From: Terriglobales bacterium
GTDB taxonomy: Bacteria > Acidobacteriota > Terriglobia > Terriglobales > Acidobacteriaceae
NCBI GenBank assembly: GCA_035538255.1
Contig: DATLKS010000989.1
Coordinates: 1-30,734, forward strand
DNA: 30,734 bases
Direction: 5' to 3'
In this document: positions 882 through 8,498 of the stretch, in pieces
How positions within the stretch are numbered: position 1 is the stretch's first letter
How the letters are laid out: each line of letters opens with the position of its first letter
Notes under the pieces: model-generated
The model's input: the letters and a program-made list of their open reading frames with translations, nothing else
The model's database searches: none
What the model was told of the DNA's origin: nothing
Program-made: the position numbers and the translations under genes

Positions 882-957
882 ATACCGCGCGTGCGGGACT
901 GGGCATCTGTTAAATACATGGAGGTAGCAGTGAACAGCTAACCGACTAAACGTTCAA
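882..957 (-). pseudogene. Possible degenerate N-terminal relic of a PIN/VapC toxin
   Basis: TTG overlaps the antitoxin stop (TTGA) and reads LNV* before an in-frame TAG. A shifted frame then reads MYLTDAQSR, reminiscent of the x-x-Y-x-D-(T/S)-S...LYLxD start of PIN toxins. Resemblance judged by eye only. Confidence 0.3.
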
Positions 958-1190
958 TACCGCCCACGCTCCTCGATAAGAAGGTCAGCTCCCGGAAGAG
1001 TACGGTCTCCAAAGATCTCTTTTCGCATCGCTGCGAAGTCTGGATAGGGAACTTTCTTCCTCTCTGGATTGCGCGGCACGATGTGCGCAATCACTCGATC
1101 ACGCTCGCGAAGCTCGACGGTCTTGCCGGCGCGAAGCCACGCCTTAAGCTTGCGAGTGTCACGAAGCTGACGCAGGTTGATGCTAGGCAT
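954..1190 (-). CDS. Phd/YefM-like type II antitoxin (78 aa)
   Basis: From ATG 1190: MPSINLRQLRDTRKLKAWLRAGKTVELRERDRVIAHIVP. This is the Phd-type pattern (short helix, G-x-x-V, 'VIAxIVP'). The ORF-track extension to 1241 is probably not translated. Confidence 0.7.
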   Translation of the reverse strand: MPSINLRQLRDTRKLKAWLRAGKTVELRERDRVIAHIVPRNPERKKVPYPDFAAMRKEIFGDRTLPGADLLIEERGRY

Positions 1191-1200
1191 GAACAGAAAG

Positions 1201-1219
1201 GTGACACATCCTGTCTCAC
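1201..1219. promoter_or_regulatory. Imperfect inverted repeat, candidate TA autoregulation operator
   Basis: GTGACAC-atcct-GTCTCAC (6 of 7 pairs), 10 nt upstream of the antitoxin ATG. Confidence 0.3.
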
Positions 1220-1254
1220 AACTCAAGAATCGCCAGGACACAACACTGGTTGTT

Positions 1255-2304
1255 CTAAATAACTTCTATTGGCTTCTCACCCTTCGGCAGCACTTCGCCG
1301 ATGCGCACCGCAGGGACTCCCGCAACTTCCATCGCTGCGATCACACCCTTTGTGATCTCGCTGGGAACCGATAGCAGCAAACCACCTGCGGTTTGTGGAT
1401 CGTAGAGGAGCGTCTTGAGTTCCTCCGAAACATTGCCTTTGTAAGCGACGCACGATTCTGCAAACTCACGATTTGTCTTGAGACCGCCGGGGATGAACCC
1501 GGCTCGAACGCATTCCAGTGCACCGCGCAGAAGTTCGATCAATTTAGCTTCAATGCGAATTGTGGTTTTGCTGCCTACAGCCGTCTCTCGCGCATGGCCG
1601 ACCATTCCGAAGCCGGTGATGTCAGTTGCAGCATGAACCGTGAAGCCGCCTTGATGAACCACCTGAACTGCACGCTGATTCAACTTGGTCATTGAGGCTA
1701 CAGCGCCATCGATCCACTCCTGCTTGGCTTTGCCCTTCTTGATAGCCGTTGAAATCACTCCGGTGCCGATCGGCTTGGTAAGCACGAGCGCGTCGCCTAC
1801 TTTGGCCTTTGAGTTCGCCCAGAACTTCTTCGGATGCACGCGCCCGGTCACGGAGTAACCCAGTTTCATTTCGGGATCACGCACGCTGTGGCCCCCGGCA
1901 ACGATGCACCCTGCCTCCTGCATCTTTGATAGTCCGCCGGCGAGCATCCGGCCGAGTATCTCGAGATCGCCGCCTTCCGGGAAGCAGGAGATCGCGAGCG
2001 CCGTCATTGGCTCGCCGCCCATTGCATACACATCGCTTAACGAATTCACTGCCGCAATCTGGCCAAAAATGAAGGGATCATCGACGATGGGCGTGAAGAA
2101 ATCGACGGTTTGTACGAGAGCGAGATCGTCCGAGAGCCGGTATACGGCTGCGTCGTCGGCGGTATCGAAGCCGACTAGCAGGTTTTCGTCATGTTGCCGG
2201 GCTAATTTCCCAAGCACCGCGTCCAGCGCCGCCGGACTCAGCTTCGACGCTCAACCTGCAGCCTTTACCTGCTCAGTAAGGCGCAATGGACGGCGATCTT
2301 CCAT
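1255..2304 (-). CDS. selD: Selenide, water dikinase SelD, probable selenoprotein (Sec18 encoded by in-frame TGA at 2251-2253; 349 aa)
   Basis: Body motifs DDAAVY, QTVDFFTP, FGQIAAVNSLSDVYAMGG, GGHS, TDITGFG and DPQTAGGLL. In-frame upstream extension reads MEDRRPLRLTEQVKAAG-TGA-ASKLSPAALDAVL, matching the G-(C/U)-x-x-K active-site motif. Confidence 0.95.
2221..2237 (-). promoter_or_regulatory. Putative bacterial SECIS hairpin
   Basis: Minus strand GUCCGG-CGGCG-CUGGAC: 6-bp stem with one G-U pair and a G-containing loop, starting 14 nt after the UGA. Confidence 0.6.
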
Positions 2305-2310
2305 GGTTCG

Positions 2311-2316
2311 ATTCTA
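2311..2316 (-). promoter_or_regulatory. -10 box of a probable leaderless selD promoter
   Basis: TAGAAT followed by 6 nt and then ATG 2304; no Shine-Dalgarno. Confidence 0.55.
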
Positions 2317-2533
2317 GGTCTGTGGGCTTAAAACTGCCACGGGGAACTCGGCGGAAGTCTACGCATGGACCGGCACGTTCGAAATCAGGAATGCGCCCGA
2401 TCTAGTCGCAATAGAGTGTAGCTTCGAATCATCATGCCGTGAGAGTACATGTCTCTCCGTGCTTTGCGCCTGCAGTCAACATCGGGGAACATGAGGCCTG
2501 TCCCCCGGTCCAATCCCTCAAATGGAGATTGTC

Positions 2534-4619: not shown

Positions 4620-5150
4620 TTACTTTTCTGACAACAACTTCTTTATACTCGCCTCAAGCTCATCTCGATCCACAAGTCGCGCTTGGTAAGCCGCAGCGAT
4701 TCTTCCGCGGCGGTCGATCACGAATGTGTCGGGCAAGTTTTGGATCCCGTATTGTTTGGCAGTTGCAGCGTCGCCGACGAGCATGCGGTAGGGAATTTGA
4801 TGCGTGCCTAAATACGGCTTTACCACTTTCCAGCCACCATCGTCCATCGCCACGCCGACGATCGAGAGGCCACGCCGACCGTAGGTCTTTTGATATTCAG
4901 AAAACCACGGAATCTCCTGTTTGCACCCTGTGCACCACGTAGCCCAGAAATCGAGGACGAGAACTCTACCGGCGTAATTTCTCAACTTAGCAGTTTTGCC
5001 GAATGAATCCTTGAGCGTGAAGCTTGGTGCCGGCTTTCGATCCTGTGCTCGTATCAACGTTGTGTCTGTAACAGGTTCGTCTGCAGCAGCGAGTGCAGTC
5101 GCAAAAAGGAGAAGGATCGACAACGGCGTGCGCAGCCACTTTGAGTTCAT
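4620..5150 (-). CDS. TlpA/redoxin-family thiol-disulfide oxidoreductase, exported
   Basis: APSFTLKD, VLDFWATWCTGCKQE (CxxC), LPDTFVIDRRG; signal peptide; SD AAGGAGG. Confidence 0.88.
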   Translation of the reverse strand: MNSKWLRTPLSILLLFATALAAADEPVTDTTLIRAQDRKPAPSFTLKDSFGKTAKLRNYAGRVLVLDFWATWCTGCKQEIPWFSEYQKTYGRRGLSIVGVAMDDGGWKVVKPYLGTHQIPYRMLVGDAATAKQYGIQNLPDTFVIDRRGRIAAAYQARLVDRDELEASIKKLLSEK

Positions 5151-6627: not shown

Positions 6628-6658
6628 TAGCTTAGAAGCTCAGGAGCTTAGTAGCTAG
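6628..6658. repeat. Four degenerate octamer repeats (nAGCTnAG)
   Basis: AGCT at 6629, 6637, 6645 and 6653 (period 8), overlapping the rpoD stop. Confidence 0.6.
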
Positions 6659-8346
6659 TCCCTGACTCCATCCATGAACGCTCGCAACTTCCTCGAGCGG
6701 GATGGATGACGCAACTTGCGCAGCGCTTTGGCTTCTATTTGGCGGATGCGTTCGCGCGTGACTGCAAACGACTGTCCGACTTCTTCGAGCGTGTGCTCGG
6801 AGCCGTCTTCGAGCCCGAAGCGCATCTTGATTACTTTCTCTTCGCGCGGAGTGAGCGTGCGCAGAACATGCGCCGTCTGCTCCTTGAGGTTCACGTTGAT
6901 CACGGCTTCTGCCGGCGAGACTACGCCGCGGTCTTCGATGAAATCGCCAAGATGCGAATCTTCCTCTTCTCCGATTGGAGTTTCGAGAGAGATAGGCTCC
7001 TGCGCGATCTTCAGCACCTTCCGGACCTTCGCCACAGGAATATCCATGCGCTTGGCGATCTCTTCCGACGTAGGCTCGCGGCCGAGTTCCTGCACAAGCT
7101 GCCTCGAAGTGCGAATCAGCTTGTTAATGGTCTCGATCATGTGCACCGGAATACGAATGGTGCGTGCTTGGTCGGCAATGGCGCGTGTGATCGCCTGGCG
7201 AATCCACCACGTCGCGTAGGTCGAGAACTTGTAGCCGCGACGGTACTCGAACTTGTCCACTGCCTTCATCAGGCCGATGTTGCCTTCCTGAATCAGATCG
7301 AGGAACTGCAGTCCGCGGTTGGTGTATTTCTTAGCAATCGAAACGACGAGCCGCAAGTTGGCTTCGATGAGTTCGCGTTTCGCGTACTCAGCATCGATGT
7401 CACCTTGTACGATCTCGCGCTGCGTGCGCTTCAGCTCGCCGAAGGTGATGCCGTACTCCTGCTCCATCTTCTCGAGATCGGCCTTGCAGTTGCGCTGCTG
7501 ACGGCGATATTCCTTCTTGAGCTCTTCCGAACGCGTGGAGTCGACCTTCTTTTCCAGGTTGTGGAATTGACGATCGAGCGAACGCATCTGCTCGGCCACG
7601 TGTCCCACGCGGTCGATCAGCTTCTTGCGCTGCGAGTTGGTATAGCGCAGCTCGCGAATGATGCGCGACACCATCACGCGCTCGCGGCCCAGCGCCCAGC
7701 GGCATTTACGGAACTCGCCGGGACGCTTCTTCTTGTCGACGTTTTCCAGCTTCTCTTCAAGCTGCTCCGCTTTCTTGAAATGCTTGTGCATTTCGTCGAT
7801 GCGGTGCGTCGTAGCCTTGATGCGGGTTTCGATGATCTCGTCGGTAATCTCTTCCTCGTCGAAGATCACCACTTCCTTGATCGAGCGAACCCCGCGCTTC
7901 AGGTCTTCGCCGATTGCGAGCACTTCGTTGATGACGATGGGAGAACGAGAAATCGCCTTCAGAACGCGGAGCTGTCCGCGCTCGATGCGCTTCGCAATCT
8001 CAACTTCGCCTTCACGCGTGAGTAGCGGAACCGTTCCCATCTCCCGCAGATACATGCGGACGGGATCGTTGGTTTTTTCCAGAGTGCCGGGAGTGAGGTC
8101 GAGTTCTACGTCTTCGCCGGCCTCTATGTCTTCAAATTTATCCTTGAGATCGGAGCCGGGCATTTTCGATCCGTCAAGGACGTCGATACCCTGCGTGCCA
8201 ATCGTGGTAAGCAGATCATCCAGATCATCAGGCGAATGGACATCGTGGGGAATGAGATCGTTGACCTCCCCGTAGGTGAGGTACCCCTTCTCCTTGCCTG
8301 CGTCGATCAGTTTTTGTATATCGTCGAATTTGTCGTTAAGCGCCAA
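6655..8346 (-). CDS. rpoD: RNA polymerase primary sigma factor RpoD
   Basis: Region 1.1 ([14 protein letters not shown]), 1.2 ([11 protein letters not shown]), 2 ([58 protein letters not shown]) and 4 ([24 protein letters not shown]). Start is TTG 8346 or GTG 8352. Confidence 0.98.
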
Positions 8347-8498
8347 ATGCACTCATCTCCAGTTCATCAAAACTTGTGGGCCGAGATGGCCGGACGGCGA
8401 GCCAGGCACAGTTCTGCGCAGCTCGACTACATGTGCGGCGAAGCGTCGTAAGTTCTTCAGAATGAATAGCTGGTAGGCACGCCTATCCGGGAGAGACT

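What the first reader, a model, noticed from the sequence alone, without database searches (positions are those of the whole stretch)
2221..2316. selD is a probable selenoprotein: in-frame UGA at the catalytic residue plus a SECIS-like hairpin
Seen: the ORF track starts selD at 2217, but the frame continues to ATG 2304 through a single TGA (2251-2253), giving RLTEQVKAAG-U-ASKLSP. A 6-bp hairpin with a G-containing loop begins 14 nt after the UGA, and a TAGAAT box sits 6 nt before the ATG. Known: the SelD active site is Cys17/Sec with Lys three residues later (E. coli C17, K20), and bacterial SECIS elements lie just 3' of the UGA. Inference: the organism decodes Sec and must carry selA, selB and selC elsewhere. 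Automated annotation would truncate or pseudogenise this gene.
Basis: partly seen in the sequence, partly recalled or inferred. Interest (0 to 1): 0.7.

Follow-up and report, generated by a model that had tools for sequence, protein, structure and literature searches.

The report
Selenocysteine-containing selD in a soil acidobacterium
The selD gene of this uncultured soil Terriglobales bacterium really does use an in-frame UGA to place selenocysteine at its catalytic site, helped by a conserved RNA hairpin; this is a correct call but a well-known kind of gene that gene callers routinely cut short.

Summary
The observation and the interpretation both hold. selD lies on the minus strand (ATG 2304 to TAG 1255). 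Its single in-frame TGA (2253-2251, codon 18) aligns with E. coli SelD Cys17, and Lys21 aligns with Lys20. The same TGA is present in 27 of 28 related Terriglobales genomes. The one exception has TGT and no hairpin.

A 7-bp hairpin with a GGC loop (2237-2221) meets all four constraints of the published bacterial SECIS model. It is 98% paired across relatives, with one G-C to A-U compensatory change. Synonymous-codon identity rises to 1.0 just after the UGA, against a gene mean of 0.49.

The genome carries tRNA-Sec, selA and selB. It also has three formate dehydrogenase genes with UGA at the canonical Sec site. TGA is otherwise the commonest stop codon in the window. Contigs from four soil studies show no other base at the codon.

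Sec-containing SelD is one of the two most widespread bacterial selenoproteins, so the novelty is low. Two minor extras: the mRNA is probably leaderless, and the conserved RNA block is longer than the hairpin explains.

The parts
1255..2304 (-). Full selD coding sequence (349 codons plus TAG stop), selenide, water dikinase with Sec at residue 18
   Evidence: Translation with TGA=U. TIGR00476 SelD scores 365.5 bits against a cut-off of 125, and NF002098 scores 320 against 299. E. coli SelD structure 3u0o matches at E 6.5e-69 over residues 5-341.
2251..2253 (-). Sec codon UGA (residue 18)
   Evidence: Aligns with Cys17 of E. coli SelD. TGA sits at the same column in 27 of 28 relatives; one has TGT. 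No alternative base in contigs of four soil runs.
2242..2244 (-). Lys21 codon (AAG), equivalent of E. coli Lys20
   Evidence: Alignment; invariant in relatives.
2221..2237 (-). SECIS upper hairpin: 7-bp stem with GGC apical loop (loop 2228-2230)
   Evidence: Fold (-10.8 kcal/mol on its own). 98.4% paired over 27 sequences, with a G-C to A-U double change in 6. Meets all four constraints of the bSECIS model (PMC13188914).
2208..2248 (-). Proposed full SECIS stem-loop: lower stem (2239-2248 with 2208-2219) enclosing the upper hairpin
   Evidence: The 20-pair structure, which also includes three base pairs 2251-2253 with 2203-2205, is 86% paired against 20-46% for slid registers. The lower stem has a G/G mismatch in this window. 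Support is weaker than for the upper hairpin.
2188..2256 (-). Block of near-invariant nucleotides, including synonymous sites, around and 3' of the UGA
   Evidence: Synonymous-codon identity is 0.85-1.0 here against a gene mean of 0.49, sd 0.13. Alignment A1. Summed contig depth jumps from about 5-15 to several hundred or over 1300 in three of four soil metagenome runs (about twofold in the fourth) across 2188-2253, tailing off by about 2264.
2215..2217 (-). GTG taken as start by stop-to-stop ORF calling; gives the 320-aa truncated product
   Evidence: ORF list. Public relatives of 320 aa start at the equivalent MLGKLARQ.
2311..2340 (-). Promoter-like site GTGGCA-18 nt-TAGAAT, with the -10 box ending 6 nt before the ATG; implies a leaderless or nearly leaderless mRNA
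   Evidence: Promoter scan. A TA[G/C/A]AAT box ends 6-9 nt before the start codon in 19 of 20 same-family loci, while the surrounding sequence diverges.

Best explanation
This is a functional selD gene encoding selenophosphate synthetase (selenide, water dikinase). Its catalytic N-terminal-loop residue is selenocysteine, encoded by UGA at codon 18.

Inferred mechanism: when the ribosome reaches the UGA, the hairpin that starts 13 nt downstream (7-bp stem, C-GGC-G top) sits at the mRNA entrance. It is bound by SelB carrying Sec-tRNA(Sec), which delivers Sec instead of letting release factor 2 terminate. The enzyme then makes selenophosphate, which SelA uses to make more Sec-tRNA(Sec). That supply serves SelD itself and at least three Sec-containing formate dehydrogenases in the same genome.

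Shown here: gene identity, the position of the UGA, conservation of the UGA and the hairpin, presence of selA, selB, selC and other Sec genes, and normal use of TGA as a stop elsewhere.

Inferred only: actual Sec insertion, SelB binding to this hairpin, and transcription starting at the ATG.
For: - SelD family models score far above their cut-offs.
- U18 and K21 align with E. coli C17 and K20, and the ATP-site motifs DDAAVY, TVDFF, SDVYAMGG and TDITGFG are conserved.
- TGA is at the same codon in all 12 same-genus genomes where this part of the gene was read (the thirteenth carries one TGA in a separate N-terminal fragment). It is also there in most of the family and sister family, 27 of 28 loci in all.
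- The peptide upstream of the TGA (RLTE..KAAG) is conserved as protein, so it is translated.
- Full-length homologues at 65% identity have Cys at that column.
- The hairpin is 98.4% paired, with a compensatory G-C to A-U change that includes a synonymous Leu CTG to TTG change.
- Synonymous-codon identity peaks at about 1.0 in the ~20 codons after the UGA, roughly 4 sd above the gene mean.
- The one Cys (TGT) orthologue lacks the hairpin.
- In other phyla, many Sec-selD genes fold a hairpin with a G-containing loop at about the same distance from the UGA.
- All four bSECIS model constraints are met: 3-nt loop, 7-bp stem, GG at the first loop positions inside a C-G pair, 20-nt spacing, and -10.8 kcal/mol.
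- tRNA-Sec, selA and selB are present.
- Three FdhA homologues carry TGA at QAR(I/V)-U-H, followed by 7-bp hairpins at about the same offset from the UGA.
- TGA ends 10 of 20 long ORFs in the window, so there is no global reassignment.
- No variant base at the codon in contigs from four studies.
Against: - There is no direct evidence of selenium incorporation or of expression.
- Folding of this single sequence is not better than shuffled controls.
- The covariation amounts to essentially one evolutionary event, one clade against the other.
- The lower stem has a mismatch in this window.
- The assembly is a fragmented metagenome bin (1038 contigs, 2% contamination). Co-residence of selA, selB and selC with this contig therefore rests on binning. 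However, relatives with better assemblies carry the same TGA.
Confidence: 0.95

Rival explanations
1. The UGA is a true stop. The real product is the N-truncated 320-aa protein starting at GTG 2217, as gene callers annotate it, or the gene is a pseudogene.
For: Table-11 ORF calling gives 1255..2217. Public collections hold relatives as 320-329 aa proteins.
Against: - The truncated protein would lack both catalytic residues, Sec/Cys17 and Lys20 in E. coli numbering.
- The 17 codons before the TGA are conserved as protein in 27 genomes down to 54% overall identity.
- The TGA itself is invariant rather than decaying.
- The gene shows no other stops or frameshifts.
Confidence: 0.02
2. The UGA is read through, but by something other than Sec: near-cognate Trp, Cys or Arg insertion, or a local or global codon reassignment.
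For: Nothing here shows which residue is inserted. UGA is the leakiest stop codon (general knowledge).
Against: - Complete Sec machinery is present.
- The column is Cys in homologues, the standard Sec/Cys pairing.
- A model-conforming SECIS lies at the right distance.
- TGA is the most frequent stop among long ORFs in the window.
Confidence: 0.03
3. The TGA is a sequencing or assembly error for TGC or TGT.
For: The window is a metagenome-assembled contig, and the region is a graph-branching hot spot.
Against: No alternative base at 2251-2253 in contigs from four runs of four studies. The same TGA appears in 26 other independently assembled genomes.
Confidence: 0.005

Closest known systems
Sec-containing bacterial SelD (for example the Aquifex aeolicus enzyme solved as 2yye/2zod; also Haemophilus influenzae and Deltaproteobacteria)
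   Same: Same family and same position of Sec in the N-terminal Gly-rich loop. The motif G-U-A-[AS]-K matches G-C-A-A-K in the Aquifex crystallised protein. A coding-region SECIS hairpin follows the UGA. SelD and FdhA are the two most widespread bacterial selenoprotein families (PMC1794560), and 19% of prokaryotic SelD genes encode Sec (PMC4561486).
   Different: The host lineage is an uncultured Terriglobales (Acidobacteriota) from soil. The mRNA is probably leaderless. The block of synonymous-site conservation runs about 60 nt past the UGA, which is longer than the minimal hairpin.
E. coli SelD (Cys17 form; PDB 3u0o)
   Same: Alignable over almost the full length, residues 5-341 (phmmer E 6.5e-69), with the catalytic Lys and ATP-site motifs conserved.
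   Different: E. coli has Cys (TGC) and no SECIS; this gene has Sec.
E. coli fdhF/fdnG-type bacterial SECIS
   Same: A stem-loop within the coding sequence just 3' of the UGA, with G at the first loop positions and spacing inside the 16-37 nt model range (PMC13188914). The FdhA genes of this same genome have GGUCU loops on 7-bp stems at about the same offset.
   Different: The loop is only 3 nt (GGC), or 5 nt if the closing C-G pair opens. No bulged U is evident. The sequence is otherwise unrelated.

Membership tests
SelD / selenophosphate synthetase (TIGR00476, PurM-like) | Score above the curated family cut-off over the full length | tested here: met
   TIGR00476 scores 365.5 bits against a cut-off of 125. 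NF002098 scores 320.2 against 299.
SelD / selenophosphate synthetase (TIGR00476, PurM-like) | Catalytic Cys/Sec in the N-terminal loop, with Lys three residues later (E. coli C17, K20) | tested here: met
   U18 and K21 align with C17 and K20 of 3u0o.
SelD / selenophosphate synthetase (TIGR00476, PurM-like) | Conserved Asp-rich ATP/metal-site motifs of the AIR-synthase-like N domain | tested here: met
   DDAAVY, (T)VDFF, SDVYAMGG and TDITGFG align with the E. coli and Aquifex motifs. The assignment of these motifs to the ATP site is from memory of the published structures.
SelD / selenophosphate synthetase (TIGR00476, PurM-like) | ATP-dependent selenophosphate synthesis | not testable with these tools
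   Needs an enzyme assay.
Bacterial selenoprotein gene (SelB-dependent UGA recoding) | In-frame UGA aligned with Cys in homologues and conserved in orthologues | tested here: met
Bacterial selenoprotein gene (SelB-dependent UGA recoding) | bSECIS model: 3-9 nt loop, 4-16 bp upper stem, G in the first two loop positions, 16-37 nt spacing, MFE <= -7.5 kcal/mol (PMC13188914) | tested here: met
   3-nt GGC loop closed by C-G, 7 bp, 20 nt between the UGA and the loop, -10.8 kcal/mol. Conserved pairing.
Bacterial selenoprotein gene (SelB-dependent UGA recoding) | tRNA-Sec, SelA and SelB in the same genome | tested here: met
   RF01852 scores 62 bits and ARAGORN calls SeC with anticodon TCA. selA scores 544.8 bits and selB 385.7 bits. 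All are on other contigs of the bin.
Bacterial selenoprotein gene (SelB-dependent UGA recoding) | Selenium actually incorporated at the UGA | not testable with these tools
   Needs 75Se labelling or mass spectrometry.

The most novel reading that the evidence does not exclude
In this Terriglobales family the selD mRNA is leaderless, with the Sec-UGA only 51 nt from the 5' end. The roughly 69-nt invariant block (2188-2256) is more than a SelB-binding hairpin. It can form either a long lower stem or a second 3' hairpin. It might act as a selenium- or SelB-responsive switch that autoregulates SelD synthesis.
Probability: 0.12. Interest if true: 0.45.

Novelty: new member of a known kind. Interest (0 to 1): 0.15.

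Why it matters
- **Annotation:** the catalytic N-terminus, including Sec18 and Lys21, is missing from essentially all public protein records of this clade. Anyone modelling or expressing those records would get a dead enzyme.
- **Physiology:** this abundant group of soil Acidobacteriota uses selenocysteine, in SelD plus at least three formate dehydrogenases, but selenouridine synthase was not detected. That is a small datum for selenium ecology in soils.
- **Mechanism:** nothing new is shown.

Tried and rejected
- **Rfam scan.** A scan of the whole window at gathering thresholds found nothing. This is not informative about a bacterial SECIS.
- **Single-sequence folding.** The significance test was negative (z = -0.65). 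I relied on comparative data instead.
- **Exact look-up of the truncated ORF.** The look-up failed, probably because the reference translation begins with V rather than M. It was replaced by the homology search.
- **selU.** Selenouridine synthase was not found in the 91%-complete assembly. Absence is not proven.
- **Earlier notes.** A search of this genome's earlier notes returned nothing.
- **RNAalifold lower helices.** Its consensus proposed different lower helices from the MFE-derived lower stem I counted. Neither lower-stem model has decisive covariation, because the family is invariant there.
- **MFE contrast.** Downstream segments averaged -18.5 kcal/mol in Sec loci and -9.4 in Cys loci. 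The contrast is confounded by GC content, since many Cys loci come from other, more distant phyla such as Bacteroidota. I do not use it as evidence.

Full report
**The observation**

On the minus strand the sequence reads TAGAAT (2316-2311), six bases, ATG (2304-2302), then 16 sense codons, TGA (2253-2251), and an open frame down to TAG (1257-1255). The TAG inside the TAGAAT box is in frame, so ATG 2304 is the only start available upstream of the TGA. Plain ORF calling stops at the TGA and restarts at GTG 2217.

The hairpin has 7 bp once its closing G-C pair is counted: 2237-2231 pairs with 2227-2221, with a GGC loop at 2230-2228.

**What the gene is**

Read with TGA=U, the 349-residue product matches the SelD equivalog models far above their curated cut-offs. 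TIGR00476 scores 365.5 bits against 125, and NF002098 scores 320 against 299. It aligns end to end with the solved E. coli and Aquifex aeolicus enzymes.

In that alignment residue 18 (the UGA) falls on E. coli Cys17 and Lys21 falls on Lys20. The motifs DDAAVY, VDFF, SDVYAMGG and TDITGFG are conserved. I recall these from the published structures as forming the ATP/metal site. A protein starting at GTG 2217 would lack both catalytic residues.

**Is the UGA conserved and real?**

Titles of the nearest public contigs identify the organism as an uncultured Terriglobales (Acidobacteriota) from soil. The evidence on the codon is as follows.

- A search of 40 relatives found selD with exactly one TGA in all 13 same-genus genomes and in most of the family and sister family.
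- I extracted 28 loci. In 27 of them the TGA sits in the identical context ...AAG-U-A[S/G]KLSP.
- The remaining locus (L039) has TGT.
- The peptide before the TGA is conserved as protein, so it is translated.
- Full-length public homologues at about 65% identity have Cys there.
- Contigs from four soil runs of four different studies show no other base at 2251-2253.
- TGA ends 10 of 20 long ORFs in the window, so it is an ordinary stop in this genome.

One of the 27 rows, L034, comes from an unpublished genome (G015). No claim depends on that row alone.

**The SECIS**

The review PMC13188914 states four constraints for the bacterial SECIS model. This hairpin meets each of them.

| Constraint | Required | Observed |
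|---|---|---|
| Apical loop | 3-9 nt | 3 nt |
| Upper stem | 4-16 bp | 7 bp |
| Loop sequence | G in the first two loop positions, typically N1-G-[G/U]-N-N2 with N1 and N2 paired | C-GGC-G |
| Spacing from UGA to loop | 16-37 nt | 20 nt |
| Free energy | <= -7.5 kcal/mol | -10.8 kcal/mol for the hairpin alone |

Single-sequence folding of a 62-nt piece is not better than shuffles, so I tested the element comparatively.

- In 27 sequences the seven pairs are 98.4% paired, against 21-42% when the 3' partners are slid by 1-3 columns.
- One pair changes G-C to A-U in six sequences of the sister family. This happens through an Ala to Thr change on one side and a synonymous Leu CTG to TTG change on the other.
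- Another pair goes from G-U to A-U in eleven sequences. Together these amount to about one evolutionary event, so the covariation is supportive rather than overwhelming.

Stronger evidence comes from 20 same-family orthologues. Identity of codons encoding the same amino acid averages 0.49 (sd 0.13) over the gene. It climbs to 0.85-1.0 in the roughly 20 codons after the UGA, a signature of selection on the RNA.

Three further observations fit.

- The Cys orthologue L039 has no comparable stem.
- In other phyla (Gemmatimonadota, Desulfobacterales, Campylobacter and others), many Sec-selD genes fold a hairpin with a G-containing loop at about the same distance from the UGA.
- The three Sec-FdhA genes of this same genome have 7-bp stems whose loops start 2 nt closer to the UGA. 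Two of them have GGUCU loops.

**Sec machinery**

All parts are in the same 91%-complete bin.

- tRNA-Sec is at C752:1359-1453, at 62 bits against a cut-off of 47. ARAGORN calls SeC with anticodon TCA.
- selA is at C800, at 544.8 bits, in an uninterrupted 480-codon frame.
- selB is at C203, at 385.7 bits. It covers model positions 1-576 of 581, so the C-terminal SECIS-binding part is included.
- Three formate dehydrogenase alpha homologues carry one TGA each, at QAR(I/V)-U-H.
- Selenouridine synthase was not detected.

**Annotation**

The best public protein hits at 80-90% identity are almost all 320 or 324 aa and cover about 92% of the query. They begin at MLGKLARQ or MLDKVLGK. The one named NCBI record ("selenide, water dikinase SelD [Terriglobales bacterium]") is 329 aa and begins at MSPAVLD.

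**Extras beyond the finding**

1. *Probable leaderless mRNA.* The promoter scan finds GTGGCA-18-TAGAAT ending 6 nt before the ATG. A TA[G/C/A]AAT box ends 6-9 nt before the start codon in 19 of 20 same-family loci, although the flanking sequence is not conserved and there is no Shine-Dalgarno sequence. The sister family instead has TATAAT 17-18 nt upstream followed by GGAGG. This points to a leaderless selD mRNA in this family. It is an inference without transcript data.

2. *An invariant block longer than the hairpin.* The block extends to about 2190, well beyond the upper hairpin and the candidate lower stem (2239-2248 with 2208-2219). A 20-pair structure made of these, plus three pairs joining the UGA itself (2251-2253) to 2203-2205, is 86% paired, with a G/G mismatch in this window. 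An alternative 3' hairpin is possible. Because the family is invariant there, neither model can be tested by covariation.

3. *Depth jump in soil metagenomes.* Summed contig depth jumps from about 5-15 to several hundred or over 1300 in three of the four soil runs, and about twofold in the fourth. The jump spans 2188-2253 and tails off by about 2264, and contigs break at its edges. This independently shows that the block is shared nearly letter for letter by many community members.

**Comparison with what is known**

Sec-containing SelD is textbook. SelD and FdhA are the two most widespread bacterial selenoprotein families, and every Sec-using bacterium surveyed had at least one of them (PMC1794560). 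In addition, 19% of prokaryotic SelD genes encode Sec, always at this position (PMC4561486).

This is therefore a new member of a known kind in a poorly studied soil lineage. The finding is correct and useful for annotation. It is not surprising to a specialist.

Noticed in passing
window 2311-2340 (-) and loci L018-L038: A conserved TAGAAT-like -10 box ends 6-9 nt before the selD start codon in 19 of 20 same-family genomes, with no Shine-Dalgarno sequence. The sister family has TATAAT plus GGAGG. This suggests a leaderless selD mRNA.
   Followed up: partly
window 2188-2256: In three of four soil metagenome runs the summed contig depth jumps about 20- to 100-fold over this block (about twofold in the fourth), and contigs break at its edges. 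The stretch is shared almost identically by many organisms in these soils. Conservation reaches about 30 nt beyond the classical SECIS hairpin and is not explained.
   Followed up: partly
G000:C947:3524-3777 (L136 1122-1376, minus strand): A second SelD-like C-terminal fragment (84 aa, 47% identical to residues 269-349) runs off the contig end. It is either a paralogue or bin contamination. Relative G002 also has two TGA-containing selD copies.
   Followed up: partly
G000:C842:4655-7657, C730:3072-5660, C681:1012-4368 (L128-L132): Three formate dehydrogenase alpha-subunit homologues each carry one in-frame TGA at QAR(I/V)-U-H, followed by a 7-bp hairpin (GGUCU loop in two). They are presumably selenoproteins too, and likely split or truncated in annotation.
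   Followed up: partly
window 4620-5150 (-): An AhpC/TSA-Redoxin family protein (176 aa) lies about 2.3 kb from selD. Some members of this family are selenoproteins, but this one is an uninterrupted ORF.
   Followed up: no
window 954-1241 (-): A small ORF (95 aa, no Pfam hit) lies directly downstream of selD on the same strand. Its function is unknown.
   Followed up: no
window 6655-8352 (-): A full-length primary-type sigma-70 factor with regions 1.1, 1.2, 2, 3 and 4 (565 aa), i.e. an RpoD-like housekeeping sigma.
   Followed up: no
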